A stretch of DNA of 11,071 nucleotides from an uncultured Methanosarcinales archaeon (GCA_964429995.1 CAYSDY010000005.1:20930-32000); one strand, 5' to 3'; shown: positions 56-11,071, counted from the stretch's first letter. Numbers and translations: made by a program. The notes: a model not told the origin generated them from the sequence alone.

Positions 56-1083
56 AGATTTTAGATGTATATGGAGACTTAGAAGTATACAGATCTTCCA
101 GTCATAACTTAAGTGTAAAAGATGTTTTTAACTACAAGAGCGACATTTTAAGTATACATGCCGGTAATTACTTTTCGTTCAACAACAGCAAGATAGGTTT
201 TTTGCTTAACGAGAACTTTCTTGTTAATAGTTCCTACTTTGAAGTTTTATACGGTGATAGTTTCTACTTTAAGAATTATCAGGGCAAAATCTTTGGAATC
301 AATAACAGTGTGGGTATAGGCAGTACATATTCTAATACCATACCATTATCCAACAACAGCTTATACGTTGAAGGTGACATAGGCATACGAACACTCAATC
401 CAGGCAATGAATTATCTGTAAATGGAAGCGTAAGCATAGGAAGCACATATGCTCAAGTAAGTGCAGAATCCAATAGCCTTATTGTAGAAAACAAAATAGG
501 TATCAATACAAGTAATCCAACAGTTGCTTTAGATGTTAATGGAGTAGGTCGTTTTGCCGGAAGCAATCCCTACGATTTAACACCAAGCGATGGAGTGGTA
601 CATGTGTTAGGAGATGTTCATGCAACTGGTGAATTAATTGCAGATGGTGCAGATCTTGCAGAAAAATACTTATCAGATTCAAATGAAGAATTTTCTGCTG
701 GTGATGTTGTTGTCATATCCAAAACACAAGATGATTCAATAGAAAAAAGCACTTATTCATATCAAAAAGTTTTAGGAGTTATATCAACTAAACCTGGTTT
801 GGTTATAAACGGTAACGAAGAAAATGGTCATCTTGTTGCACTTGTAGGAAAAGTTCCAACTAAAGTAATTGTTGATGAATCAAATCCTATAAAAAGAGGT
901 GATAGGTTAGTTGCATCTGATATAAAAGGGCATGCAAAAAAATGTGAACTTATAAATCCATCACAATCATCACTACCAATAGAAGAGGTAATATATAACA
1001 ACCAATTATGTATTGATGGAACTATAGGTTACGCTTTACAGCAGACAGATAAAACAGGTAAAATATTAATAGTTTTAAAATAA
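1..1083 (+). CDS. Tail-fibre-like beta-helical repeat surface protein, 5'-truncated by the window edge (361 codons visible)
   Basis: Frame 1 is open from nt 1, with no stop before the TTG at 202 that the ORF track used as a start. Stop is TAA at 1081-1083. It has degenerate fibre-type repeats (V/I)GI(G/N)(S/T)xxPxxxLxVxG, e.g. NSVGIGSTYSN, GDIGIRTLNPGNELSVNG, NKIGINTSNPTVALDVNG. The C-terminal ~150 aa form a non-repetitive part beginning ADGADLAEKY. A 5-nt gap to the next gene suggests an operon. Confidence 0.8.
   Translation, partial: NGVGRFAGSNPYDLTPSDEILDVYGDLEVYRSSSHNLSVKDVFNYKSDILSIHAGNYFSFNNSKIGFLLNENFLVNSSYFEVLYGDSFYFKNYQGKIFGINNSVGIGSTYSNTIPLSNNSLYVEGDIGIRTLNPGNELSVNGSVSIGSTYAQVSAESNSLIVENKIGINTSNPTVALDVNGVGRFAGSNPYDLTPSDGVVHVLGDVHATGELIADGADLAEKYLSDSNEEFSAGDVVVISKTQDDSIEKSTYSYQKVLGVISTKPGLVINGNEENGHLVALVGKVPTKVIVDESNPIKRGDRLVASDIKGHAKKCELINPSQSSLPIEEVIYNNQLCIDGTIGYALQQTDKTGKILIVLK
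538..592. repeat. Copy 2 of the 55-nt perfect direct repeat
   Basis: Exact match to 1..55. The offset is 537 nt, which equals 179 codons and is therefore in frame. Confidence 0.95.
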
Positions 1084-1088
1084 AAAGA

Positions 1089-2849
1089 ATGGTAGAAAAA
1101 AAAATAAAAATGAAAAAAGGCTTTAGCGGAAAACAAATGATAAATATCTTAACAATTTTAATGTTTTTATTTGTGTTTGCAACATCTTTTACATATGCAG
1201 TAACACAGATAAATCCATACGAAAATTTTAGGTATAGAAACTTAATCAGTCTAAATCAAGTTATTAATGAATCAAACAGAGATTACTATGATTTTGTTGT
1301 AAATATTGACACAAAAACTTTGATAAGTTTGGGTAAAATGAAGAGTGATTGTTCAGATATTCGTTTTAGTGATAATGATGGAGTAACTTTACTAAACTAC
1401 AATCTAAATGCTTTCACATGTAACACAAATTCTACTTATTTTAAGGCAAGAGTTCCTAAAAAAGAGATTTCAACAGAAAACTTAACAGATGAATATCACA
1501 TATATGCATACTTTGGAAATCCAACAATGAACAGTGATTTAAACAATAGTATTGGAGTTACAAATGGATTAAGCCCTGGATTTTTAACAGAAAGTGTTTA
1601 TTCAACATATCATAGATGTTATATTGATAAAATTGGAGATGTTTATTGTGTAGGTGATAATACATATGGTCAACTGGGAGATGGAACAGCAACAGTAAGG
1701 TATAGTCCTGTAAAGGTTGTTGGCTTAGATGGTGCTACAATTCAAGTTGTGGTAAATAATGTTGCAACATGTGCTTTATTACAAAATGGTTCAGTTTATT
1801 GTTGGGGATATGGAGGAAATGGGCAATTGGGAAATGGAGGTTCTACAACATATTATACTCCTGTAAAAGCTTCAATAGATAATGTTACACAACTAGCAGG
1901 AAATGGTGTTCAAGCATTTTGTGGGTTAAAATCAGATGGTAAACTTTATTGTTGGGGATATGGTCCATACGGTGATATAGGTGATGGATTGGCTGCGACA
2001 AGTACATTGAATCCTACTTTAGTAAGCGAAGGTGCTGGTTTAATACAGGGAGATATTGGATTTGTTACAGGTGGTTATTATTCTTTTTGTGCGATCACAA
2101 AATCTACAAAAAAAGCATTTTGCTGGGGTTATGAACAATATGGTCAACTTGGAGATGGTATAGGATCAAGGGCAACTGTTCCTAGCAAAGTTGCAACGCC
2201 TGAATTTTCAGAAGATGCTGTTTATATAGCACCGATTCATTTTGGATATTGTGGAATAAAGTCAGACGGTTCACTTTATTGTTGGGGTTATGGGGGATAT
2301 TATCTTACAGGATTGGGAAGTGCTAACAATTATAATTATCCAGTAGATACTGGGTTAGATAATGTAGTTCAGGTTCTTGGTTCATCAGATCAGTCCGCAA
2401 CATGTGCCATAACAAAAAATATGCAGATGTATTGTTGGGGACATAGTCAGACAATTCCTGGATGGGATCCTGGTTATGGATATTTAACAACACCTGTACT
2501 CATAACAGAATATGGTGAAGGTTTAGATAATCCTATTGCACTTGGTTCTTCTTATGGTGCATTTTGCGGAGTTAATAAGAATTTAAGTGTTTATTGCTGG
2601 GGTTTTTATAATGCTTATGGAACGATGGGTATAGGTAACATAACAGTATATCCAAATCCAAAATACATAAATAGTTTATCAGCTGGCTACATTCATAACA
2701 AAAAACCAACATCAGATACATCAACATTACAGATACCAGATTTACAGTCTCAATACTATATGTCAGACTCTATAAACATATCAATTCAGCCAGAACAAAC
2801 ATGGATTAGCATAGGCAATATGGATGTTTCAAACATTCAGATAAAATAA
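1089..2849 (+). CDS. Secreted DUF2341-domain + seven-blade RCC1-like beta-propeller protein (586 aa)
   Basis: The N-terminal signal peptide or anchor is KKGFSGKQMINILTILMFLFVFATSFTYA. A DUF2341-like block follows (FRYRNLISL...DYYDFVVNI...DCSDIRFSDNDGVTLLNYNL...TYFKARVPK...IYAYFGNP). After that come seven repeats of C-x9-10-(Y/F)C(W/V)G-x4-5-G(Q)LG(D/N)G. The ORF is long and starts 5 nt after the previous stop. Confidence 0.88.
   Translation: MVEKKIKMKKGFSGKQMINILTILMFLFVFATSFTYAVTQINPYENFRYRNLISLNQVINESNRDYYDFVVNIDTKTLISLGKMKSDCSDIRFSDNDGVTLLNYNLNAFTCNTNSTYFKARVPKKEISTENLTDEYHIYAYFGNPTMNSDLNNSIGVTNGLSPGFLTESVYSTYHRCYIDKIGDVYCVGDNTYGQLGDGTATVRYSPVKVVGLDGATIQVVVNNVATCALLQNGSVYCWGYGGNGQLGNGGSTTYYTPVKASIDNVTQLAGNGVQAFCGLKSDGKLYCWGYGPYGDIGDGLAATSTLNPTLVSEGAGLIQGDIGFVTGGYYSFCAITKSTKKAFCWGYEQYGQLGDGIGSRATVPSKVATPEFSEDAVYIAPIHFGYCGIKSDGSLYCWGYGGYYLTGLGSANNYNYPVDTGLDNVVQVLGSSDQSATCAITKNMQMYCWGHSQTIPGWDPGYGYLTTPVLITEYGEGLDNPIALGSSYGAFCGVNKNLSVYCWGFYNAYGTMGIGNITVYPNPKYINSLSAGYIHNKKPTSDTSTLQIPDLQSQYYMSDSINISIQPEQTWISIGNMDVSNIQIK
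1224..1526 (+). other. DUF2341-like domain (aa ~46-146 of the 586-aa protein)
   Basis: Motif order YRxxI...DFxVxI...DIRFxDxDG..L.Y......(V/F)xxxVP.....I..Y(Y/F)GNP matches my recollection of the Pfam DUF2341 signature. Confidence 0.65.
1602..2663 (+). repeat. Seven protein-level RCC1-like repeats (blades), period ~50-56 aa
   Basis: VYCVGDNTYGQLGDG, VYCWGYGGNGQLGNG, LYCWGYGPYGDIGDG, AFCWGYEQYGQLGDG, LYCWGYGGYYLTGLG, MYCWGHSQT, VYCWGFYNAYGTMGIG. The recurring nucleotide core is tattg(t/c)tgggg. Confidence 0.85.
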
Positions 2850-2853
2850 AAAA

Positions 2854-3663
2854 ATGGATAAAAAAAAATATATAAAACTATCAATCTTATTATTGGTTTT
2901 GTCAGGTTTAGTATTTTTAGCATACTACTACATGCCAAATATAAACAGAGTTGTTGTACCCATGCAATTAGTTGAAGTTTCAGTTCTTCCAACTGATGTA
3001 GATTATTTAAAATCAAGAGAAGAAGAACAGACTGCACTTGAAAATGCAGGTTCTGATTCAAAAAAGATTGATTTGCATTTATCTTTTGCAGAAAAAAGAC
3101 TATCTGAATCATTGCAAATGAAAAAACTTGGAAGAACCAAAGAACACTACGATACTTTTAGAGATTACACAAATGAACTTACATACGCATCCTCATATAT
3201 GACAAAAACAGAAGACATTATAAGTATGCTAAATAAACATTCTAAGATAATATTAGACTACGAAATAGATCTAGAAACAAAATCTAATGTGTTATCAATT
3301 ATAAACAACCAGTTATCATACATTGCAAAAGAAGAGAAAAATCCTGAAAAAGAATTCAAACTTTATACATCCATCTTGCAAAAACAAATAGAAATCATGA
3401 ATAAATTGATTGATGATAAAGTTGCAGAGAATGATTTTTATTCTTTTGCAAGATTATATAGCCAAAGACAGCAAAACATTAAGTTCTTAGTTGTTGATAA
3501 TTCACAAAATACAGCATTTATAGGCAAAATAAAAGATGAAATAGGATCACAGAGTAATCAGCTTGAAAAACTTATTGCTAAAGCTCCAACAGATGGCATA
3601 AAACAATCTTTGACAATGCTTTTAAATGAGAACAAGATGATGTTTGCTCCTTTGGATGCGTAA
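2854..3663 (+). CDS. N-terminally membrane-anchored, predominantly alpha-helical protein (269 aa), function unknown
   Basis: A single N-terminal TM is present (KKKYIKLSILLLVLSGLVFLAYYY). The remainder is K/E/L/I/N-rich with a helical or coiled-coil character. The segment LHLSFAEKRLSES resembles the helical DUF5667-type motif from memory. A 4-nt gap to the upstream gene suggests an operon. Confidence 0.75.
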   Translation: MDKKKYIKLSILLLVLSGLVFLAYYYMPNINRVVVPMQLVEVSVLPTDVDYLKSREEEQTALENAGSDSKKIDLHLSFAEKRLSESLQMKKLGRTKEHYDTFRDYTNELTYASSYMTKTEDIISMLNKHSKIILDYEIDLETKSNVLSIINNQLSYIAKEEKNPEKEFKLYTSILQKQIEIMNKLIDDKVAENDFYSFARLYSQRQQNIKFLVVDNSQNTAFIGKIKDEIGSQSNQLEKLIAKAPTDGIKQSLTMLLNENKMMFAPLDA

Positions 3664-3763: not shown

Positions 3764-4141
3764 ATGCCAAATAAAAAATCTTTTGTGCCATCAATTGTTG
3801 CAGTATTGCTTGTTTTTACAACAATTGTATCTTTTATCATACTTATGGGATGGCATCTATCACTTATAGATGGGATAAGTTATGAATTAAAACACAAGAC
3901 AAGATTAGACAATATGCAGATATTAGGTTTTAATGATAGTTCTATTCTTCTTGTTAATGTAAGAGAATTAGAATTTGAGCCAACACTCCTTAAAATCAAC
4001 AACAACACATGTCCTCTAAATCCTTCAAAATACAGATTAGGGATAAATGCAATAAATCTTAGTGCGTGTCTTGAATCAGGTTATAATGATATATTCTTAA
4101 CTGATGGCAAAAACACATACACATACAGCACATACAGATAA
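3764..4141 (+). CDS. Small N-terminally anchored protein (125 aa), possible class III signal peptide / pilin-like
   Basis: MPNKKS followed by a 23-aa hydrophobic segment, FVPSIVAVLLVFTTIVSFIILMG. This is followed by a ~90-aa beta-rich body with two Cys (NNTCPLNP...LSACLESG). It appears to have its own promoter-like box. Confidence 0.7.
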   Translation: MPNKKSFVPSIVAVLLVFTTIVSFIILMGWHLSLIDGISYELKHKTRLDNMQILGFNDSSILLVNVRELEFEPTLLKINNNTCPLNPSKYRLGINAINLSACLESGYNDIFLTDGKNTYTYSTYR

Positions 4142-7100
4142 TTAAAGTATCATATCAAGTTTTTCAACTATTGTTTTTCTGTTATATATTTCTGACTTAC
4201 TTCCTAAAAATATTTTATATCTTTTCTGAACCTGATATGATGTTGTTACTATGTAAAATTTATCATATTTAAGTTTTAGGTTATGAAGTTTTAATAATAG
4301 TGATTTTTTCCTAAATTTAAACATTTTTCCTGTTTCAATTTCTATTGCAATCAGTCTTTTTGATTTATCATAAAATATAATATCAGCATCTTTTACAACA
4401 TTAACATCAACTTTGTATCCTTTATTTTGTATGTACTCTCTTAATTGTTCAACAAGAAACGTATGTTCAATTGATTCAACATTATTAGTTTTAACAAAAT
4501 ATTCTTTATACCTTCTATCATTTAAGCCTACAAAATTACCAATTCCAAACCCTGTTGACATAAGATAATTCTTTTCTTCACATGTTAACATAAGACTTTC
4601 AAAAACATTTTTAGAAGTGTCAATCTTGATTTTACAGTCTTCTTTTCTACTTAATGGGTATTTTTTAGAATAGAACTTTTCATTAGGGTTTGTTGTAATA
4701 ATCCTGTGTTCATTTTCACTTGCAATTATGTTTAATGCTTCATGTCTGTTGTCAAGTATTAATATTCCTTGTCCAACATCAGCCATTTTAAGTATATTAC
4801 ATTCCTTTTCAGATAAATTAAACATTTTTGATAACATCTCAATTCCTGCACTTTTCTGTTTTAAAAGTACTGTATATGAGATATTTGTAATTATTGCTCT
4901 AGCATTGTATGAATTTATCAAATCTTCTAAATCCTGAGTTACAAGCAATATTCCAAGATTAAATTTTCTACATGTTTTAACTATTTCAAATATATAATTA
5001 GCATCAGAGCTGTTATTTATCAAAAGCCATGCCTCATCAATAAGAAGTATTTTTTTAACTGATGAATTTTTTTTCATTCTTGTATATATCTCTTCAAGTA
5101 TTATAAACATCATAACAGGTTTAAGTTGCTTATGAATTTTGGATATATCAAAATTAATCCATGCCTCATCACTTATATTTACAGAAGTTTGAGCATTTAA
5201 AAATGAAAAAACACCATATACATATATGTATAATCTGTTTATCAGCGATTCGTAACTATATTGCTCCATTTTTGATGCCTTTTTATAATTTTTTTCAAGT
5301 ATTTTATACAAATCTTCAAGAATAGGCATTTTCTTTGATTCATAACTTTCATCAAATATTCCATACAAATCATATACCTCTTTTAAGTTTTTATCAAGAA
5401 CAGTTCTTTGTGCAAATGTAAGTTCACCAAGCATTATTGCAAATAATTCAAGTAATGACATTCTTTTCTGCATATATGTCTGGCTTAACAAATCAAGCGG
5501 ATTAATTATAGATTTTTTTTCTTTTGATATTTCAATATTTTTACCCTTAGCATACTCTGTTATTCCCATGTATTCTCCTTGTGGATCTATTATTATGATA
5601 TTTGTTCCCATCATAAAATTTCTTAAAAGAAATAGTTTTGAAAAATAGCTTTTTCCTCCCCCAGAAGTTGAAAGAATCAATCCATTTGCATTTGGCAATT
5701 TAAAAACATCTCTTATTATTGGAATCATGTTGCTATTAACTCCAAATAGGCTACCATATTCATCGTTTTCCATAAACCTGCTTGTAAAAGGGAAAAATGC
5801 ACTAAGAGCTCTTGAAGTAATATTTTTCTTATTATTTTTTACAGGGTTATGTCTTATAGGAGAATTGATTTTATAATTTTCAGCCTGTCTAAACTTTTCA
5901 ACATCACAAAGCAACATTACAGAGTTTAAGCTTGTTATCACCTTTTCTGTAAGATAATCCATTTCACTTTTTTTATCTGAATGTATGCTAAATGAAAGTG
6001 TAATATTAAAAAGCCTCTCATCACCTTTTTGCAGGCTTTCTAATACATTTAATGTGTCATTATGCTGAATTTGTAAGGATGGATTAATTGAATTATTCAA
6101 AGTATATGCATAAAGGTCAGCCCTTTGTTTTATTATTTGCCTGTTAAGCATTATCATAACATCTTCAATTTTAAAGGGTTCTATGTGAAAAGACATATCA
6201 ATATTTTCATTGTTTGCAATTATTGTTGATATGAATCCAGGCTCAACACTTCTGGGGTACCCTTTTACAATCACTGTTCTGTAAAATCTATTATCAATCT
6301 TTATGTAATCAAGTCTGCCAGTTATCTTTAAAGGCCCAGTAAAATGAGTTATAGCCTGTTTGTTCTCAAATCCAGATTTTTTATCAGAATCAAAATCATA
6401 ATGCATATTTGTTTTATTTTCCCTATTATAGAATTTTCTGTAAAAATATATCAATTCATCATTTTTTAAAAGATATGGCTTAATCTGAAGGTTTTTAAGA
6501 TTATCACTAAATATTAAGGATTCTACATCAATATTTCTAAATTCCTCAAGTATTACAAAAAATTCCTTATTTCTTAGATGATTTTTTTTTATATAATCAT
6601 CAAGAAAAACCCTATAAGAACTGCAAAGTTGTGCATAGTCTGCAATGTTTTGATTAATTTTATGGTTTTGCCTTGTAAAATCTAAAACGAGTGAGTCAGT
6701 TAGAACAACTATTTGAATGCTATTGTTAAGCGAATTTAGAAGTTTTTCAAAGCATTTTAATGTATCCTTTTTAGATTCATCATTAAGAATATCAAAATCA
6801 ATAGGCATAACTTTAAACACGCATATTCTTTTTTCTTTTTTTACTCCACTTGTTTTGTTTTGCAATATAGTAATTTTATAATCATCAATTCTGCTTATAG
6901 GTATAAGATCATTCATATCATCACTATCCTGCTCTATTACAATATTTCTAAGAAAAAAAAACATATACTTGCAAAACTGCATCATATCAAAAAATGCAAA
7001 ACCTATCATCATTGTAACAAGCAATGGAACCAAAAACCAATATACAAATATAATATTAAGATTGCTTTTTATTGCTAAAATCATAAAAGGCATAAAAATA

Positions 7101-7183
7101 CATATTAAGACTATTTGCTTAAAAGTTAGATTGAAGAATATTTTTTCTTCATATTCAAGCTGTTTAGGAATTTCATAAGCCAT
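4142..7183 (-). CDS. virB4: VirB3(PrgI-like)-VirB4 family T4SS ATPase fusion with an additional C-terminal PD-(D/E)xK nuclease-like domain (1013 aa)
   Basis: The N-terminus EIPKQLEYEEKIFFNLTFKQ plus two TM helices is PrgI/VirB3-like. The VirB4 N-domain motif is FYRTVIVKGYPRSVEPGFISTII...IDMSFHIEPF. Walker A is LILSTSGGGKSYF and Walker B is KKILLIDEAWLL, followed by GILLVTQDLEDL. About 150 extra residues follow the ATPase. The start overlaps the upstream gene's stop by 11 nt. Confidence 0.88.
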   Translation of the reverse strand: MAYEIPKQLEYEEKIFFNLTFKQIVLICIFMPFMILAIKSNLNIIFVYWFLVPLLVTMMIGFAFFDMMQFCKYMFFFLRNIVIEQDSDDMNDLIPISRIDDYKITILQNKTSGVKKEKRICVFKVMPIDFDILNDESKKDTLKCFEKLLNSLNNSIQIVVLTDSLVLDFTRQNHKINQNIADYAQLCSSYRVFLDDYIKKNHLRNKEFFVILEEFRNIDVESLIFSDNLKNLQIKPYLLKNDELIYFYRKFYNRENKTNMHYDFDSDKKSGFENKQAITHFTGPLKITGRLDYIKIDNRFYRTVIVKGYPRSVEPGFISTIIANNENIDMSFHIEPFKIEDVMIMLNRQIIKQRADLYAYTLNNSINPSLQIQHNDTLNVLESLQKGDERLFNITLSFSIHSDKKSEMDYLTEKVITSLNSVMLLCDVEKFRQAENYKINSPIRHNPVKNNKKNITSRALSAFFPFTSRFMENDEYGSLFGVNSNMIPIIRDVFKLPNANGLILSTSGGGKSYFSKLFLLRNFMMGTNIIIIDPQGEYMGITEYAKGKNIEISKEKKSIINPLDLLSQTYMQKRMSLLELFAIMLGELTFAQRTVLDKNLKEVYDLYGIFDESYESKKMPILEDLYKILEKNYKKASKMEQYSYESLINRLYIYVYGVFSFLNAQTSVNISDEAWINFDISKIHKQLKPVMMFIILEEIYTRMKKNSSVKKILLIDEAWLLINNSSDANYIFEIVKTCRKFNLGILLVTQDLEDLINSYNARAIITNISYTVLLKQKSAGIEMLSKMFNLSEKECNILKMADVGQGILILDNRHEALNIIASENEHRIITTNPNEKFYSKKYPLSRKEDCKIKIDTSKNVFESLMLTCEEKNYLMSTGFGIGNFVGLNDRRYKEYFVKTNNVESIEHTFLVEQLREYIQNKGYKVDVNVVKDADIIFYDKSKRLIAIEIETGKMFKFRKKSLLLKLHNLKLKYDKFYIVTTSYQVQKRYKIFLGSKSEIYNRKTIVEKLDMIL
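4325..4477 (-). other. Core of the putative PD-(D/E)xK (restriction-endonuclease-fold) domain, aa 903-953
   Basis: ESIEHTFLVEQLREYIQNKGYKVDVNVVKDADIIFYDKSKRLIAIEIETGK has an acidic residue in a helix, then a D-hhh strand, then an hhhh-E-h-x strand, then GK. This resembles NucS/DUF91- and Hjc-type cores, e.g. the pattern G-x-I-D-hh-x-x-D-x4-hhhh-E-h-K-x-G-K. Here the canonical K position is E950, and a K follows at 953. Confidence 0.45.
5027..5050 (-). other. Walker B (ILLIDEAW, aa 712-719)
   Basis: A hydrophobic strand followed by DEAW is the form typical of the VirB4/TraC/TrbE family. Confidence 0.85.
5648..5671 (-). other. Walker A / P-loop (STSGGGKS, aa 505-512)
   Basis: The reverse complement of 5648..5674 reads ctt tca act tct ggg gga gga aaa agc, which translates to LSTSGGGKS. 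Confidence 0.9.
6944..7183 (-). other. PrgI/VirB3-like membrane domain (aa 1-80)
   Basis: The motif IPKxLxxYxEKIFFxLTxKQ is followed by two hydrophobic helices (IVLICIFMPFMILAI; IIFVYWFLVPLLVTMMIGFAFF). Confidence 0.65.
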
Positions 7184-7958
7184 TTGCTGATACCTGCTGA
7201 TATTTTAGTGCATAAAAAAAACCTGCTATGTAAAGAATACTTACAAGCATAAGTCCTGCTGAATAGAAAAATGGTTTAAACAAAATTGCATCAGAACATA
7301 GTTTTTTTGTAATCATCATTATAAACGCTGAAGGGATTGACACAATATTAAAAAAAAGTATAATATTTAAAAAAAACATTCCAATCCTTCTTGTGTAAGT
7401 AATACATGTACAAAATATGACAAAAGGTAATAACACAATTCCTAATACAATTATTATAATTCTTATATAAAACAACAAAAGTGAGAACATAAGTACAATC
7501 GTTAATATTCCAAAAGCAATAATATCAAAATCTAAAAGCATATTGCTATCAATAACAAAATTTCTGCCTGCACTGTATGCAATTTGAGATATTATGTTAT
7601 TTAGTAAAGAGTACAAGTAAAATGATGCGTGTAAGAATATCATTGCAATAAGATTTTTTTTCAAGTTTTCCTTAGCATTATACCTTTTTTCAATAGCATA
7701 AGAAGAATTAATAAATTCAAATCCATTAAAACAGAGAACTATAACAAAGAAAAAAGATATTAGTTTAACATTAAACATCCACATATCCCTATATTCATCA
7801 AAATCAACATTGTAAGAATTTATGTATGTAAAAGCAGAAGAAAGAATATCGCTTGGAGACATAAAAAAAGATTTAAGATCAATAATCTCAAACCCATATA
7901 CATTTCCTATACCAATCAATATAAGTAAAGGCATTATGAATGCGATTTTCATCTTCAT
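7173..7958 (-). CDS. Polytopic membrane protein (~6-7 TM), VirB6/TrbL/CedA-like by topology and context (261 aa from the preferred start; the ORF track start at 7994 gives 273 aa)
   Basis: The preferred start is the ATG at 7958-7956, which forms an ATGA overlap with the TGA stop (7957-7955) of the upstream gene. It yields a signal-like N-terminus, MKMKIAFIMPLLILIGIGNVYG. Six or more further hydrophobic helices follow (e.g. LISFFFVIVLCF, IIAFGILTIVLMFSLLLFYI, IIIIVLGIVLLPFVIFCTCI, IGMFFLNIILFFNIVSIPSAFIMMI, AGLMLVSILYIAGFFYAL). The stop is TGA at 7173-7175. The function call rests on topology and position only. Confidence 0.8.
   Translation of the reverse strand: MKMKIAFIMPLLILIGIGNVYGFEIIDLKSFFMSPSDILSSAFTYINSYNVDFDEYRDMWMFNVKLISFFFVIVLCFNGFEFINSSYAIEKRYNAKENLKKNLIAMIFLHASFYLYSLLNNIISQIAYSAGRNFVIDSNMLLDFDIIAFGILTIVLMFSLLLFYIRIIIIVLGIVLLPFVIFCTCITYTRRIGMFFLNIILFFNIVSIPSAFIMMITKKLCSDAILFKPFFYSAGLMLVSILYIAGFFYALKYQQVSANGL
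7192..7195 (-). promoter_or_regulatory. Shine-Dalgarno-like AGGT 8 nt upstream of the virB4-like ATG
   Basis: The minus strand reads tcagcAGGTatcagcaaATG, inside the 3' end of the upstream gene. This fits coupled translation of an internal operon gene. Confidence 0.35.
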
Positions 7959-8317
7959 CCAAGTATAAAATTCACAATATAAGGAGCACTCCATATAATT
8001 ATTAGCCCTATTATTATGTAAACCATGGAATTTTTGGCATTATCTCTTTTTATATTATTATTTCCAGCAGTCATAAAGCTAAACCCTGCAAACAATATTG
8101 CGATCATTCCTATAATTGATCCTGCATACTTAAAAAGCATGTAAAGTTTTGCAACAGGCTTTAATATATTATCAAAGTTTTCTCTATCTTTTGTTGATAA
8201 ATCATCATCAATATCAAAACTTACCGAATCAGCATAAACTACATTTTCTGTAACCGATAAAAAATATAAGAAACAGAGCATAATTAGTATAAAAAAACAG
8301 TTTTTTTTTCTGTTCAT
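7955..8317 (-). CDS. Small secreted two-helix membrane protein, VirB2/TrbC/CedA1-type pilin candidate (120 aa)
   Basis: The signal peptide is MNRKKNCFFILIMLCFLYFLSVTENVVYA, followed by an acidic spacer. Hydrophobic helix 1 is LYMLFKYAGSIIGMIAILFAGFSFMTAG. A short basic loop, NNNIKRDNAKNS, joins it to hydrophobic helix 2, MVYIIIGLIIIWSAPYIVNFILG, at the C-terminus. It is the first gene of the operon. Confidence 0.8.
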   Translation of the reverse strand: MNRKKNCFFILIMLCFLYFLSVTENVVYADSVSFDIDDDLSTKDRENFDNILKPVAKLYMLFKYAGSIIGMIAILFAGFSFMTAGNNNIKRDNAKNSMVYIIIGLIIIWSAPYIVNFILG

Positions 8318-8709: not shown

Positions 8710-11071
8710 ATGAATAAATTAAGAAAAGCAACAAAAAGAATTGCTGCTATTGCAGCTTCAGCTGCTATGGTAAGTTCTGCTGTTTTTGGAGCAGGATTAA
8801 GCACATATCCTAACAATTTTGTTAAGAATGGCAAGTTTGTAGGTCAGGTTGTTGTAGGTTCAACAGCTGATGCTATGGATAGTACTTCAGCTTCAAGCGT
8901 TATTGAGGATTTGAAGGCAGAGTTCTCTGGAAGTTCTGAAAAAGTAGTAATTACTTATAAAAAATCAGGCTCAGGTGGAGAAGAATTAAATGCTGTAAGA
9001 AGCAATAATGAGTTAAACTACGGTGAGAACTTAGGAGATGTTACAGAACAGTCAGGTTTTGATTCTCGTGATATTGATGTTCTAGCAGATGGTAGATTCA
9101 GAAACGGTGTTTCAGATGAAGATTACGAACAGTTATTGTACGTAGCTTACGATAAGACAACTGGTTTTGGTAAATTCAACTACGCTTTAAGAGATAAAGT
9201 TGAAGATGTTAGAGACATTGTTGATGGTGTTTATTTTGAATACGATGATGTTTTTGCAATGTATGAGTTGTCACTTAAAACAGCAATAACAGGCACATTA
9301 ACAACATCTGCAAATAAGGATGACTTTATTGGTCAAGAACTTATAATAATGGGTAACGAATTCACAGTTGGTGATATTGCATTTACTGGTAACAATCTTG
9401 ATAAATTGGTATTACTTGGTGGAGCAAACAAGATATCATTAGGTGAAGGAGAAAGTACAAAAGTATCAATGGATGGCAAAGATTATGATATTGCTGTAAT
9501 GTCAGTTTCTGATACAAAAGTATTGTTGACTATAAACGGACAGTCAAGATCAATTTCAGAATACGATACAGAGGAGGTTTCAGGTATTACAGTTGCTGTT
9601 ACAGATTTAGTTTCATCTTCAAGAGATGCTGTAAAAGGTTATGCTGAGATAGTTGTTGGTGGAAACAAAGTTGAATTACTAGATGGTAACAAGCTTGTTA
9701 AAGTAAACAACGAAAAAATAAACGATATGTTTGAAGGTTATGAAATATGGTCTGACTTTACAGGTTCTGGAATTGATACAATACAGATTACATACAAAGT
9801 AAAGGACGATACATTATTGCAGAAAGGAGAGCACCTTGAAGATGTTTTATTCCAGTCTTTCAGATTAGTTTACGAAGGAACAAATGAACCAAAATACTCA
9901 ACAGTTGAAGTAAGAGTTAATGATGAGGATGTTAAGGTTTCTGGAAAAACAATTAGAGGAGAATCATTCTCAAGAGATTTGATACACCTAGGAGCTAAAA
10001 CAGCTGCTGACAGTATAGTTTACTTTAAAGGTAACAGAGCCGGAGACAGAACATTCTTTAGAAACTCTGAGGACTTTACAGCTGGTACAACAGGAACAGT
10101 AGGAGATTTAGCTGCAGCATTACTTGATGGAACAGCTCCAACATTCGACTTGACAAGTGCTAATACAAGAGGTTCAGGTTTCCTTTTATCAAAGGATAAT
10201 GATGAACAGTACATGTTTGAAATTAGAACTCTTGATACAAGTGATGTTGATAAAGAGATTGATTTCCTTGAATACCTAAGAGGTGGCGGAAAAGATGATA
10301 TTAAAGAGTCACAGTGGGAAACTAAATTAGCTTGGGGAGTAACAGGTTTATTAGATGGTACAAGTGCACCTACAAACAAAATATTAAATGTTACAAAACT
10401 TGGAAATCTTATAGGATTTGAGAATGATTTGTTACTAGACTTAACAAATGCTGAAACAATAGACATCAGTGCTACAACTCCAAAATTTGTATTCAAACTT
10501 GATAGTGCCGATACAAGAGGAGACAGTGCAACAGATGATCAGCAACAGGTAAGAGTTGAATTTGATCTTGATACAACAGATGATGAATTTATGATTAAAG
10601 GAGTTAGTTCATTAGATAGTACAGGAACACTTGCAACTTTTGCTAATGCAGGTTTTGAAAACAATGAATACAGAAATTCCGATAGAAAAACATACGTTGA
10701 TGTTTTCGGAACAAAAGTTGAATTTGATAACAAGGATAAAGAATTCGTAAGAATTATGGTTCCTGAAGAACAAGTTAGAGCAAATGTTAAATTAGTATTT
10801 GGTGCAGCTTCTGATTCATACACAGTAACAGTTGACGCTGATAAAGTTGACTCTAAAAAGAGTGAATTGAAAGCAGATGGTTACACAGTTGTAAAAGAAG
10901 AAAAACTAAGTGCTGAAGCAATAACATTTGATGTTAAATCAGCTGTTCTTGATACACAGGTTTCAGGTTCATCAGACATGATTGTTGTTGGTGGTCCAGC
11001 AATAAACTCAGTAGCAAGAAGTTTATTAGGTATAAATACATACACAATAGACCAAGCTGGCGTTTCTGAAA
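8710..11071 (+). CDS. Archaeal S-layer protein (Methanococcales/MJ0822-type S_layer_N family), 3'-truncated by the window edge (787 codons visible)
   Basis: I translated it by hand and found no stop from the ATG at 8710 to the end of the window. The N-terminus is MNKLRKATKRIAAIAASAAMVSSAVFGAGLSTYPNNFVKNGKFVGQVVVGSTADAMDSTSASSVIEDLKAEF, i.e. a signal peptide followed by the VVVG-x-x-A-x-x-D...(A/S)xxI motif of archaeal S-layer N-domains. The late motif SDMIVVGGPAINSVARSLLG resembles the conserved (L/V)VGGPxxN segment. Composition is acidic and T/G/V/D-rich with no Cys. Confidence 0.8.
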   Translation, partial: MNKLRKATKRIAAIAASAAMVSSAVFGAGLSTYPNNFVKNGKFVGQVVVGSTADAMDSTSASSVIEDLKAEFSGSSEKVVITYKKSGSGGEELNAVRSNNELNYGENLGDVTEQSGFDSRDIDVLADGRFRNGVSDEDYEQLLYVAYDKTTGFGKFNYALRDKVEDVRDIVDGVYFEYDDVFAMYELSLKTAITGTLTTSANKDDFIGQELIIMGNEFTVGDIAFTGNNLDKLVLLGGANKISLGEGESTKVSMDGKDYDIAVMSVSDTKVLLTINGQSRSISEYDTEEVSGITVAVTDLVSSSRDAVKGYAEIVVGGNKVELLDGNKLVKVNNEKINDMFEGYEIWSDFTGSGIDTIQITYKVKDDTLLQKGEHLEDVLFQSFRLVYEGTNEPKYSTVEVRVNDEDVKVSGKTIRGESFSRDLIHLGAKTAADSIVYFKGNRAGDRTFFRNSEDFTAGTTGTVGDLAAALLDGTAPTFDLTSANTRGSGFLLSKDNDEQYMFEIRTLDTSDVDKEIDFLEYLRGGGKDDIKESQWETKLAWGVTGLLDGTSAPTNKILNVTKLGNLIGFENDLLLDLTNAETIDISATTPKFVFKLDSADTRGDSATDDQQQVRVEFDLDTTDDEFMIKGVSSLDSTGTLATFANAGFENNEYRNSDRKTYVDVFGTKVEFDNKDKEFVRIMVPEEQVRANVKLVFGAASDSYTVTVDADKVDSKKSELKADGYTVVKEEKLSAEAITFDVKSAVLDTQVSGSSDMIVVGGPAINSVARSLLGINTYTIDQAGVSE

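What the first reader, a model, noticed from the sequence alone, without database searches (positions are those of the whole stretch)
4145..4606. VirB4-family ATPase carries an extra C-terminal PD-(D/E)xK nuclease-like domain with a shifted or substituted catalytic lysine
About 150 residues follow the last ATPase motifs (aa ~860-1013). The core is EHTFLVEQLREYIQNKGYKV...KDADIIFYDKSKRLIAIEIETGK. This has the helix-acid, D-strand and E-strand layout of restriction-endonuclease-fold proteins and resembles NucS/DUF91 and Hjc cores. The canonical ExK lysine position is Glu (E-I-E), with a Lys three residues later. I do not recall a nuclease-fold domain fused to a T4SS VirB4 motor as a described architecture. 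On the cytoplasmic face of the motor it could process transferred DNA, for example by cutting or degrading incoming DNA for recombination or nucleotide salvage. If catalytically dead, it could act as a DNA-binding clamp that substitutes for a coupling protein.
Basis: partly seen in the sequence, partly recalled or inferred. Interest (0 to 1): 0.75.

Follow-up and report, generated by a model that had tools for sequence, protein, structure and literature searches.

The report
Nuclease domain fused to archaeal VirB4
The motor ATPase of a minimal type IV secretion (DNA-transfer-like) system in tiny DPANN archaea carries a conserved, apparently intact DNA-cutting domain on its cytoplasmic end. This undescribed fusion suggests how archaeal systems that lack a relaxase might process the nucleic acid they move.

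Summary
ORF 4142..7183(-) encodes a 1013-aa VirB3/VirB4-type ATPase. A short variable linker follows its last ATPase motifs, then a 164-aa tail (aa 850-1013, nt 4145-4636).

- **Conservation:** 98 of 102 homologues have the tail, all from DPANN archaea.
- **Fold:** AlphaFold2 models it at pLDDT 95.6. Foldseek returns almost only PD-(D/E)xK nucleases: NucS/EndoMS, YaeQ, Hjc, BamHI/OkrAI, Cas4, XPF.
- **Active site:** E903, H907, D934, E948, E950, K965 and Y989 are each conserved in 86-91 of 92 homologues. The ExK lysine position is an invariant Glu, as in BamHI.
K953 is not conserved (21/92). K965 on the next helix is the better candidate for a relocated lysine.
- **Closest sequence family:** Homologous tails weakly hit Pfam CoiA_nuc, the competence nuclease. 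The window's own tail does not.
- **Wider distribution:** The same domain occurs unfused in DPANN, often directly downstream of a tyrosine recombinase, and once fused to half an HsdS.
- **Gene context:** pilin, six-TM protein and VirB4, with no relaxase or coupling protein. This matches the Ced/Ted layout.

Most likely it is an active endonuclease tethered to the motor's cytoplasmic face that cuts translocated DNA. Activity, substrate and direction are untested. I found no prior description in Pfam, NCBIfam or the literature searched.

The parts
4142..7183 (-). Whole gene: VirB3-like TM segment, VirB4 ATPase, linker and PD-(D/E)xK tail. 1013 aa; stop codon at 4142-4144.
   Evidence: An identical protein (P0001) is found on 9 metagenome contigs.
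6944..7171 (-). N-terminal VirB3/PrgI-like membrane segment (aa 5-80), with two hydrophobic stretches at about aa 15-70.
   Evidence: Pfam PrgI 2.3e-4, 22.1 bits, below the cutoff of 27. Hydropathy analysis.
4748..5731 (-). VirB4/TraG-type P-loop ATPase domain (aa 485-812). Walker A at 505-512, Walker B at 712-717.
   Evidence: Pfam P-loop_TraG 3.2e-30, AAA_10, DUF87. Motifs located.
4631..4678 (-). Variable, gap-rich linker (aa 836-851) between the ATPase and the tail.
   Evidence: Column statistics show low conservation and up to 21/92 gaps. Median distance between the ATPase and tail profile matches is 13 aa.
4484..4630 (-). Tail sub-domain 1 (aa 852-900): beta-alpha-beta-beta. Conserved D855, L874, G878, Y879 and K898. 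It always accompanies the nuclease core, including in unfused paralogues.
   Evidence: AF2 secondary structure. Conservation. Profile matches start at positions 1-10 in most hits.
4145..4483 (-). Tail sub-domain 2 (aa 901-1013): PD-(D/E)xK nuclease core, alpha1-beta1-beta2-beta3-alpha2-beta4 plus two helices.
   Evidence: AF2 pLDDT 92-96. Foldseek PDB and viral hit lists are almost all PD-(D/E)xK nucleases. Cas4 profile hit. CoiA_nuc and other PDDEXK-type Pfam hits in homologous tails.
4463..4477 (-). Codons for E903 and H907 on helix alpha1 (E-S-x-x-H motif).
   Evidence: E 86/92 and H 91/92. E 117/117 and H 116/117 in GTDB loci, where these residues were not part of the search pattern.
4382..4384 (-). 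Codon for D934 of the (P/A)D motif at the start of beta2.
   Evidence: D 91/92. Codon checked.
4328..4342 (-). Codons for E948-I-E950-T951-G952 on beta3. This is an ExE in place of ExK.
   Evidence: E948 91/92, E950 91/92, T 90, G 90. Aligns to the E-I-K-T-G of Cas4 4r5q.
4289..4291 (-). Codon for K965 on helix alpha2, the candidate relocated catalytic or phosphate-binding lysine.
   Evidence: K 90/92. K or R 117/117 in GTDB loci. Spatial position not measured.
4217..4219 (-). Codon for Y989 on helix alpha3, a conserved residue of unknown role.
   Evidence: Y 90/92. Y 114/117.
7173..7994 (-). Polytopic membrane protein (273-aa ORF; gene callers give 256-261 aa, 7173..7958 in the longest contig). 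About 6 TM segments. VirB6/CedA/TedA-like by position and topology only. Its end overlaps the VirB4 start.
   Evidence: Hydropathy analysis. No Pfam, NCBIfam or PHROG hit. A similar protein lies upstream on the same strand in 37 of 79 related loci.
7955..8317 (-). VirB2/TrbC-type T4SS pilin (120-aa ORF; gene callers give 108 aa, 7955..8281, or 127 aa).
   Evidence: Pfam T4SS_pilin 2.9e-12 and TrbC 2.9e-9. NCBIfam Mbov_0395 pilin-like 2.2e-6, below cutoff.

Best explanation
**What it is.** The tail is a catalytically competent, metal-dependent endonuclease of the PD-(D/E)xK superfamily. It has a BamHI-like acidic ExE variant and is distantly CoiA-like. It is covalently tethered by a ~15-aa flexible linker to the C-terminal ATPase domain of VirB4.

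**Where it sits.** VirB4's N-terminal domain faces the membrane and its C-terminal domain faces the cytoplasm. A VirB4 hexamer would therefore carry a ring of up to six nuclease domains at the cytoplasmic mouth of a minimal T4SS made of pilin, a six-TM channel protein and VirB3/4.

**How it most likely works.** It is a translocase-coupled nuclease. The motor threads nucleic acid and the tethered domains cut it as it enters or leaves the channel. I favour action on imported DNA, either cutting it for recombination or breaking it down for nucleotide salvage. The reasons are the Ced/Ted-like system layout, the chromosomal location, the absence of a relaxase or coupling protein, and the fact that the closest sequence family is the competence nuclease CoiA.

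**Shown:** the fold, the fusion, family-wide conservation of the catalytic set, the gene context and the taxonomic range.

**Inferred:** catalytic activity, DNA as the substrate, position relative to the hexamer pore, and direction of transport.
For: **Fold**
- AF2 pLDDT is 95.6 and 92.4, with the canonical alpha-beta-beta-beta-alpha-beta order.
- Foldseek PDB hits: NucS 2vld 1.3e-4 (prob 1.0), EndoMS 5gke, YaeQ, VC1899/Card1, McrC, Hjc, BspD6I, EcoO109I, OkrAI/BamHI, Cas4-like, Hef/XPF and VRR-NUC.
- The viral library returns restriction endonuclease, MmcB, VRR-NUC and endonuclease I proteins.

**Sequence**
- The tail profile hits Cas4 4r5q (E 0.067), aligning D...E-V-E-T-G to D...E-I-K-T-G.
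- 9 of 56 tails hit Pfam CoiA_nuc, best E 8.8e-6. Others hit AHJR-like, HSDR_N_2, YaeQ, ERCC4 and RE_XcyI.
- VirB4-fused tails score 14.6-19.4 bits against a CoiA_nuc cutoff of 20.3. The alignment runs from the E-S-x-x-H helix to ExE-T-G, on profile positions 1-55.

**Active site under selection**
- E903, H907, D934, E948, E950, K965 and Y989 are conserved in 86-91 of 92 homologues at only ~35% mean identity.
- The same residues are kept in unfused paralogues.

**DNA context of the module**
- 19-21 of 41 unfused copies sit immediately downstream of a tyrosine recombinase.
- One copy is fused to half an HsdS specificity subunit and one to a DDE_3 transposase.

**System**
- The window encodes a pilin, a six-TM protein and VirB3/4, with no relaxase or T4CP in 23 kb of chromosomal context.
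- This is the same three-part composition as Ced/Ted, where no relaxase is known (PMC9905601).

**Precedents**
- CoiA is an ssDNA endonuclease needed for transformation, with a non-canonical active site (PD-ExQ plus a conserved Arg).
- HerA-DUF4297 and HerA-NurA are ATPase-nuclease machines from the same ATPase superfamily.
- VirB3 wraps the VirB4 N-terminal domain at the membrane (PMC9259494).
Against: - No activity data exist for any member.
- Structural similarity to solved nucleases is only moderate (TM 0.35-0.54, best E 1e-4).
- The window's own tail hits no Pfam nuclease family on its own.
- The canonical lysine is missing.
- I could not obtain model coordinates, so I did not measure whether K965 reaches the active site.
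- Nothing in the window shows that this T4SS moves DNA at all. In Patescibacteria and nanohaloarchaea, related systems have been proposed to move proteins or RNA.
- Direction of transport is unknown.
- The unfused paralogues are never next to VirB4 in the 8-kb pieces examined. The domain therefore has functions independent of secretion.
Confidence: 0.6

Rival explanations
1. Relaxase substitute for export. The tethered nuclease nicks or cuts the cell's own DNA, or an element's DNA, at the motor. This creates the free end that is then pumped out through the pilus, filling the role relaxases play in bacterial conjugation.
For: - No relaxase homologues are known in archaeal genomes or conjugative plasmids, and how ssDNA substrate is generated is an open question (PMC9905601).
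- No relaxase or T4CP lies in the 23-kb context.
- The nuclease is fused to the one ATPase of the system.
- Unfused copies pair with tyrosine recombinases, which are typical of integrative elements.
Against: - The locus is chromosomal and flanked by housekeeping genes (CysRS, STT3). There is no integrase or replication gene, so no obvious element to transfer.
- PD-(D/E)xK enzymes do not form the covalent 5' adduct that pilots DNA in conjugation (own knowledge).
- The closest sequence family, CoiA, acts on incoming DNA.
Confidence: 0.18
2. Gatekeeper or restriction function. The nuclease destroys foreign DNA that enters through the T4SS channel, possibly guided by neighbouring methylation systems. 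It would then be a defence module rather than a transfer-processing one.
For: - In L009, L046, L048 and L064, HsdM and HsdS follow the VirB4-nuclease gene on the same strand within 85-238 nt. No HsdR is visible in the L009 and L048 pieces.
- About 8 more loci have an N6_N4 methyltransferase nearby.
- L089 fuses the first half of that HsdS to the same nuclease domain.
- HerA-DUF4297 is an ATPase plus nuclease defence complex.
Against: - Only about 5-16 of 79 loci show R-M neighbours, and the window's own 23-kb context has none.
- PADLOC gives no meaningful hit for the tail.
- R-M genes often cluster in variable islands without any functional link (own knowledge).
Confidence: 0.12
3. Catalytically inactive nucleic-acid-binding or protein-docking domain. 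It would act as a substrate receptor standing in for a coupling protein.
For: - The canonical Lys is replaced by Glu.
- No T4CP is present.
- Inactive PD-(D/E)xK folds exist. RPB5-like folds appear among the Foldseek hits.
Against: - Four acidic residues, a His and a Lys are nearly invariant at ~35% overall identity, in both fused and unfused copies.
- ExE is active in BamHI (own knowledge), and ExQ is active in CoiA.
Confidence: 0.07
4. RNA rather than DNA is the substrate. The nuclease would process host RNA taken up for nucleotide supply.
For: - A Patescibacteria episymbiont with T4SS-like pili is reported to feed on host RNA (bioRxiv 10.64898/2026.06.21.733656).
- The H...PD...ExE...K layout recalls His-containing cap-snatching endonucleases (own knowledge).
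- A viral RdRp N-terminal region is among the Foldseek hits.
Against: - All other associations of the module are with DNA enzymes: recombinase, transposase, HsdS and methylases.
- The best structural and sequence neighbours are DNA nucleases.
Confidence: 0.05

Closest known systems
CoiA nuclease-like domain (Pfam PF06054), competence protein of Bacillota
   Same: - It is the nearest sequence family. 9 of 56 tails hit it (best E 8.8e-6).
- VirB4 tails score 14.6-19.4 bits, aligning the E-S-x-x-H helix through PD and ExE to profile positions 1-55.
- Both lack the canonical Lys and keep a basic residue elsewhere (CoiA: PD-ExQ plus a conserved Arg).
- Both are linked to DNA uptake or transfer machinery.
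- Some unfused DPANN paralogues also carry an N-terminal Cys4 zinc ribbon, as CoiA carries a zinc finger.
   Different: - Scores are below the gathering cutoff in every tail for which I saw a bit score, and the window's own tail does not hit at all.
- The motif is ExE, not ExQ.
- CoiA is a free cytosolic protein of bacteria with a long C-terminal region. This domain is archaeal, has an extra beta-alpha-beta-beta sub-domain, and is fused to a motor.
NucS/EndoMS (archaeal mismatch endonuclease, PDB 2vld and 5gke)
   Same: It is the best Foldseek match (1.3e-4, prob 1.0, for the whole tail; 2.4e-3, TMq 0.46, for the core). It is archaeal, with a two-part layout and a C-terminal RecB-like PD-(D/E)xK core.
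   Different: - Identity is 14%, and RMSD is 17 A over both parts, so the domain arrangement differs.
- NucS has a canonical D..ExK (own knowledge).
- No Pfam or NCBIfam NucS hit.
BamHI / OkrAI restriction endonucleases
   Same: The same four-acid arrangement: helix Glu, Asp, and Glu-x-Glu with Glu at the 'Lys' position (BamHI E77/D94/E111/E113, own knowledge). Both appear in the Foldseek lists.
   Different: Foldseek E is only 0.03-0.1. There is no sequence relationship. BamHI has no conserved His or downstream Lys equivalents that I know of.
Ced and Ted DNA-import systems of Crenarchaea
   Same: Minimal T4SS derivative made of a VirB2-like pilin, a VirB6-like polytopic protein and a VirB4/HerA-like ATPase. 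Chromosomal, with no relaxase (PMC9905601; window).
   Different: - No nuclease domain is mentioned for CedB, CedD or TedB in the passages I read of the two papers.
- Ced and Ted components share no detectable sequence similarity even with each other.
- I did not test homology of the window's proteins to them.
- The host lineage differs (DPANN).
HerA-NurA and HerA-DUF4297 ATPase-nuclease complexes
   Same: A hexameric ATPase of the FtsK/HerA/VirB4 superfamily works with a ring of nuclease subunits stacked on it. In HerA-DUF4297, assembly activates both enzymes (PMC11291478).
   Different: Those nucleases are separate polypeptides and the ATPases are soluble, not part of a membrane secretion system. 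NurA has an RNase H fold.
Nanohaloarchaeal SPEARE giant proteins
   Same: DPANN proteins with a VirB4/TraG-like ATPase for which a 'restriction endonuclease' domain was claimed.
   Different: That claim was re-examined and rejected (PMC10266531). The architecture is entirely different: giant Ig-repeat proteins. Here the nuclease fold is supported by structure prediction and conserved catalytic residues.

Membership tests
VirB4/TraC/TrbE T4SS ATPase | P-loop ATPase domain of the TraG/VirB4 type with Walker A and B | tested here: met
   Pfam P-loop_TraG 3.2e-30 (105.5 bits, cutoff 25.8) and AAA_10. Walker A at 505-512 and Walker B at 712-717.
VirB4/TraC/TrbE T4SS ATPase | End-to-end match to a curated VirB4 model, including the N-terminal domain | tested here: inconclusive
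   NCBIfam VirB4_plasma 6.2e-89 over aa 5-829 against profile 3-893/894, but 298.8 bits is below the cutoff of 590. CD1110 family 286 bits is below 325. This is homology to the family, not membership of those equivalogs. Homologues carry a weak PF26593 TraC-like hit.
VirB4/TraC/TrbE T4SS ATPase | Encoded with other T4SS parts (VirB2 pilin, VirB3, VirB6) | tested here: met
   Pilin: T4SS_pilin 2.9e-12 and TrbC 2.9e-9. A PrgI/VirB3-like N-terminus, weak. An adjacent six-TM protein identified by topology only. The same order is seen in L125 and in 37 of 79 GTDB loci.
PD-(D/E)xK nuclease superfamily | alpha-beta-beta-beta-alpha-beta core fold | tested here: met
   AF2 secondary-structure order at pLDDT 92-96. 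Foldseek hit lists are dominated by PD-(D/E)xK enzymes.
PD-(D/E)xK nuclease superfamily | Acid on helix alpha1, Asp at the start of beta2, (D/E)-x-K on beta3 | tested here: inconclusive
   E903, D934 and E948 are conserved. The K position is an invariant Glu (E950). This is a known active variant: ExE in BamHI (own knowledge), ExQ in BglII and CoiA.
PD-(D/E)xK nuclease superfamily | Metal-dependent phosphodiesterase activity | not testable with these tools
   Needs biochemistry.
CoiA_nuc (PF06054) | Score at or above the Pfam gathering cutoff (20.3 bits) | tested here: not met
   The window's tail gives no hit. Ten homologous VirB4 tails give 14.6-19.4 bits or nothing. One of 56 reaches E 8.8e-6 (bit score not shown). 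Unfused paralogues give 16.7-19.5 bits.
CoiA_nuc (PF06054) | PD-ExQ active site with a conserved Arg; N-terminal zinc finger | tested here: not met
   Here the motif is ExE, with a conserved Lys 15 residues downstream. There is no zinc finger in the VirB4 tail. A Cys4 ribbon occurs only in some unfused paralogues.
NucS/EndoMS (DUF91) | Sequence match to the family, canonical D..ExK, N-terminal DNA-binding barrel | tested here: not met
   There is no sequence hit in Pfam or NCBIfam. Only fold similarity is seen, at 14% identity and TMq 0.36-0.46.
Ced/Ted-type DNA import system | Pilin, polytopic channel and VirB4-like ATPase, without relaxase or T4CP | tested here: met
   Gene content of the window and 23-kb context, compared with PMC9905601.
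Ced/Ted-type DNA import system | Homology to CedA/B or TedA/B/C, and demonstrated DNA import | not tested
   I had no Ced or Ted sequences to compare. Import needs experiments.

The most novel reading that the evidence does not exclude
The VirB4-fused nuclease is the missing DNA-processing enzyme of relaxase-less archaeal T4SS-type machines. A single polypeptide both cuts and pumps nucleic acid across the membrane. In DPANN episymbionts this would be a dedicated device for taking DNA from, or delivering it to, the host cell, for example to harvest host DNA as a nucleotide source. The same nuclease module would be reused with tyrosine recombinases and HsdS as a lineage-specific DNA-cutting cassette.
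Probability: 0.25. Interest if true: 0.85.

Novelty: new variant of a known kind. Interest (0 to 1): 0.7.

Why it matters
- **An open question in archaeal DNA transfer.** T4SS-derived systems (Ced, Ted, conjugative plasmids) have no recognisable relaxase, and how their DNA substrate is cut and prepared is unknown (PMC9905601). A nuclease welded to the only motor of such a system is a concrete, testable candidate for that step.
- **DPANN biology.** These archaea are host-dependent, with reduced biosynthesis (own knowledge). This motor-nuclease is conserved across Woese-, Pace- and Nanoarchaeota and a few Iainarchaeia. It could be part of how they obtain or exchange nucleic acids with hosts.
- **Annotation.** The work defines a previously unmodelled PD-(D/E)xK family with at least 826 cluster representatives. 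It has an unusual E-x3-H / PD / ExE / K signature and is currently annotated only as 'VirB4', 'ATP-binding' or 'hypothetical'.
- **A recurring theme.** It extends the pairing of an FtsK/HerA-superfamily ATPase with a nuclease to a membrane secretion motor, here as a covalent fusion.

Tried and rejected
- **Tail-only sequence searches.** The word-indexed protein search found nothing. The PDB phmmer search gave only noise, Atg18 at about E 0.06. The profile search gave ubiquitin hits that come from an 'IxLEVE' low-information match. I rejected all of these as meaningless.
- **Locus search by alignment.** I replaced it with a degenerate DNA pattern, P-D-x-[IV]-F-N21-A-x-E-[IV]-E-T-G. That pattern fixes D934, E948 and E950 by construction. 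Conservation of those three residues is therefore taken only from the independent set.
- **PF26593.** I suspected this Pfam family, listed for most homologues, was a model of the tail. It is 'TraC-like' and sits at the N-terminal side. Rejected.
- **Defence and phage libraries.** PADLOC and PHROGs gave nothing useful for the tail.
- **Neighbouring genes.** Pfam, NCBIfam and PHROGs gave nothing for the six-TM protein or the 125-aa neighbour.
- **Iyer et al. 2004.** This paper on the FtsK-HerA superfamily might mention nuclease fusions, but it is not in the library. I could not check it.
- **Core-only model.** It did not sharpen the Foldseek statistics (best 2.4e-3, TMq up to 0.54). The domain is a divergent member of the fold, not a close relative of any solved structure.
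- **Mobile element.** I considered that the cluster lies on one. The 23-kb context has CysRS, STT3 and polysaccharide genes and no integrase, so this was not supported for this locus.
Full report
**1. The observation**

The window is AT-rich (26-35% GC). Its largest ORF, 4142..7183 on the minus strand, encodes a 1013-aa protein.

The first ~830 residues are a VirB4-type T4SS ATPase:
- Pfam P-loop_TraG 3.2e-30, AAA_10 and DUF87, plus a weak PrgI (VirB3-like) match at aa 5-80.
- NCBIfam VirB4_plasma 6.2e-89, aligned end to end (aa 5-829 against profile 3-893/894), and the CD1110 VirB4 family at 5.6e-85. Both are below the curated equivalog cutoffs.
- Walker A (STSGGGKS, 505-512) and Walker B (ILLIDE, 712-717) are present.

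**2. The tail is a conserved domain**

On its own the tail matches no Pfam or NCBIfam family and no PDB sequence above noise.

The full-length protein finds 102 homologues at 27-46% identity (34-46% apart from two distant outliers). Those with names are Nanoarchaeota, Woesearchaeota or Pacearchaeota, and nearly all are about 1000 aa.
- A tail profile detects the domain in 98 of the 102.
- The exceptions are two fragments and two distant (27-31% identity) VirB4s that end right after the ATPase.

In a 92-sequence alignment, ATPase conservation ends at IITTNP(D/N)E (829-835). A gapped, variable stretch follows (836-851), and conservation resumes at 852.

Near-invariant tail positions, out of 92:

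| Residue | Conserved in |
|---|---|
| E903 | 86 |
| H907 | 91 |
| D934 | 91 |
| E948 | 91 |
| E950 | 91 |
| T951 | 90 |
| G952 | 90 |
| K965 | 90 |
| Y989 | 90 |

**3. Fold**

AlphaFold2 on a 56-sequence tail alignment (A1) gave mean pLDDT 95.6 and pTM 0.89. The model has two parts:
- a small beta-alpha-beta-beta unit (tail residues 11-49);
- a core ordered alpha(56-71)-beta(76-78)-beta(86-89)-beta(95-101)-alpha(110-123)-beta(126-131), followed by two helices.

The conserved residues map as the PD-(D/E)xK template predicts. E903 and H907 lie on alpha1, D934 at the start of beta2, E948-x-E950 on beta3, and K965 on alpha2.

Foldseek against the PDB gave NucS 2vld at 1.3e-4 (prob 1.0) and EndoMS 5gke at 8e-4. 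After these came YaeQ, VC1899/Card1, McrC, BspD6I, Hjc, EcoO109I, Cas4-like ACE1, OkrAI, BamHI, Hef/XPF and VRR-NUC.

A core-only model (pLDDT 92.4) gave the same families, with TMq 0.42-0.54. The viral library returned restriction endonucleases, MmcB-like proteins, VRR-NUC and endonuclease I.

The similarity is moderate. This is a divergent member of the fold, not a close relative of any solved enzyme.

**4. Sequence links**

The tail profile's best PDB sequence hit is a Cas4 (4r5q, E 0.067). The alignment places D...E-V-E-T-G on D...E-I-K-T-G.

Scanning all 56 tails against Pfam gave CoiA_nuc (PF06054) for 9 members, best E 8.8e-6. Single or double hits went to AHJR-like, HSDR_N_2, YaeQ, ERCC4 and RE_XcyI.

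Ten VirB4-fused tails scanned individually gave CoiA_nuc at 14.6-19.4 bits (cutoff 20.3). Tail residues 54-103, from the E-S-x-x-H helix to ExE-T-G, aligned to profile positions 1-55. Unfused paralogues gave 16.7-19.5 bits.

CoiA is described as a PD-ExQ variant with an additional conserved Arg at the position of a 'migrated' Lys (PMC1189080). It has now been shown to be an ssDNA endonuclease required for natural transformation, with D95 and E105 essential (bioRxiv 10.1101/2024.02.06.579203).

So the tail is best described as a new family near CoiA_nuc. It has ExE, as in BamHI (own knowledge), and a conserved Lys on the following helix. I could not measure whether K965 reaches the active site, because model coordinates are not exposed.

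PF26593, listed for most homologues, turned out to be 'TraC-like' at the N-terminal side and not the tail.

**5. Distribution beyond VirB4**

A full HMMER search with the A1 profile over 1.84 billion cluster representatives found 826 proteins at E<=1e-3 and 588 at E<=1e-10. Many of the best 150 are short proteins whose N-termini do not match VirB4.

- Nearly all loci are labelled Woese-, Pace- or Nanoarchaeota. A few are Iainarchaeum and one is Micrarchaeota.
- About a dozen are labelled 'Methanosarcinales' and three carry bacterial labels. These are probably mislabelled or misbinned.
- About 79 copies are fused to VirB4 and 41 are not. None of the unfused copies has a VirB4 in its 8-kb piece.

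Unfused architectures:
- two TM helices, a coiled coil and the domain;
- a Cys4 zinc ribbon and the domain;
- the domain alone;
- a DDE_3 transposase and the domain (L061, 1.3e-25);
- the first half of an HsdS and the domain (L089).

E903, H907, K965 and Y989 were not part of the search pattern. They are conserved in 114-117 of 117 copies in both groups.

In 15 unfused loci a ~390-aa divergent tyrosine recombinase lies immediately upstream on the same strand (XerA-like, NCBIfam 1.2e-8 but far below cutoff; PDB XerA 0.0022). In 4-6 further loci a Phage_integrase protein (1.2e-29) is adjacent. Six loci have a reverse transcriptase next door.

The module is therefore repeatedly combined with DNA-processing enzymes.

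**6. The system around it**

The VirB4 gene's start overlaps the end of a ~270-aa protein with about six TM segments (7173..7994). That gene is preceded by a VirB2/TrbC-type pilin (7955..8317; T4SS_pilin 2.9e-12).

The same order recurs in L125 and in 37 of 79 GTDB loci.

The longest contig carrying the identical protein shows chromosomal neighbours: CysRS, a radical-SAM enzyme, STT3/AglB and polysaccharide synthesis genes. It has no relaxase, coupling protein or integrase within 23 kb.

This three-part composition is that of the archaeal Ced and Ted DNA importers. For those systems no relaxase is known, and how the ssDNA substrate is generated is an acknowledged gap (PMC9905601).

In the R388 T4SS, VirB3 wraps the VirB4 N-terminal domain at the membrane (PMC9259494). 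A C-terminal appendage should therefore sit on the cytoplasm-facing end of the hexamer. This is an inference.

**7. Mechanism**

The best-supported reading is an active, metal-dependent endonuclease held by a flexible linker at the cytoplasmic mouth of the VirB4 motor, acting on the nucleic acid the system moves.

Precedents for an FtsK/HerA-superfamily ATPase working with a ring of nucleases are HerA-NurA and HerA-DUF4297.

I favour action on imported DNA for four reasons: the Ced/Ted-like layout, the chromosomal location, the CoiA affinity, and the host dependence of DPANN (own knowledge). Direction, substrate and activity are all untested.

Rival readings:
- a relaxase substitute for export;
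- a restriction-like gatekeeper, supported in a minority of genomes where HsdM-HsdS directly follow the VirB4-nuclease gene;
- an inactive docking domain, which the conserved catalytic set disfavours;
- an RNA substrate.

**8. Novelty**

No Pfam or NCBIfam model covers the tail. Source annotations read 'VirB4 family', 'ATP-binding', 'DUF87' or 'hypothetical'. Full-text searches found no description of a VirB4-nuclease fusion.

The nearest literature item is the disputed, and later rejected, 'restriction endonuclease' domain of nanohaloarchaeal SPEARE proteins, which are unrelated in architecture. Iyer et al. 2004 could not be consulted.

I rate this a new variant of a known kind: a known motor, a known fold, an undescribed and lineage-wide fusion, and a new nuclease family signature.

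Noticed in passing
L007 2200-3462 and 3564-4430; also L015, L028, L031, L041, L052, L058, L070, L073-L075, L078, L093, L112, L117: Unfused copies of the tail domain lie immediately downstream, on the same strand, of a ~390-aa divergent tyrosine recombinase. The recombinase is XerA-like but far below the family cutoff. It matches between genomes at BLAST E values of 1e-114 to 1e-180, which suggests a recombinase-nuclease gene pair or a small integrative element spread among DPANN.
   Followed up: partly
L009 700-3437, L046 3945-6991, L048 192-2987, L064 2981-6766, L066 1076-7182: Type I R-M genes HsdM (N6_Mtase 7.8e-75) and HsdS (Methylase_S 1.8e-18) directly follow the VirB4-nuclease gene on the same strand. 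No HsdR is seen in the L009 and L048 pieces. L066 has a 993-aa ORF after HsdS that was not identified.
   Followed up: partly
L089 891-2135 (-): A 415-aa protein whose first ~230 aa closely resemble (by eye, roughly three-quarters identical) the first half of the HsdS found next to VirB4 in L046. Its C-terminus is the tail domain. It is a specificity-subunit-nuclease fusion.
   Followed up: partly
L061 6174-7538 (+), Micrarchaeota: A DDE_3 transposase domain (1.3e-25) fused through a charged linker to the same nuclease domain.
   Followed up: partly
L091, L102, L105, L123: Unfused paralogues with an N-terminal CxxC...CxxC zinc ribbon before the domain. This recalls the zinc finger plus nuclease layout of CoiA.
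   Followed up: partly
L041, L070, L073, L098, L105, L123: A reverse transcriptase (RVT_1, 1.7e-7) lies next to unfused copies of the domain in six loci.
   Followed up: no
L048/L049 (JAIORZ010000011.1) and L019/L095 (CAZNJU010000001.1): Two separate VirB4-nuclease genes on the same contig in some DPANN genomes.
   Followed up: no
window 1089-2849 (+) and 202-1083 (+): Two proteins of unknown relation to the T4SS. The first is a 586-aa protein with an N-terminal hydrophobic segment, DUF2341 and six RCC1 repeats. The second is a 293-aa protein with a weak Peptidase_G2 / phage tailspike-chaperone-like region (phrog_22593, 2.8e-8).
   Followed up: no
window 8710-11071 (+), runs off the window: A large gene (831 aa in L001) with a faint S_layer_C hit, divergent from the T4SS operon. 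GC skew changes sign near 8.4 kb, where the strands of the genes switch.
   Followed up: no
window 3764-4141 (+) and 2854-3663 (+): A 125-aa protein with one N-terminal TM segment ends one base before the VirB4 stop codon, in convergent orientation. Next to it is a 269-aa N-terminally anchored DUF5667 protein. Neither has an informative hit.
   Followed up: no
L020, L027, L057 and about a dozen loci titled 'uncultured Methanosarcinales' (e.g. L021, a 774-kb chromosome): DPANN-type VirB4-nuclease or domain genes sit on records labelled Babeliales, Bacteroides, 'bacterium' or Methanosarcinales. These are probably mislabelled or misbinned contigs.
   Followed up: no
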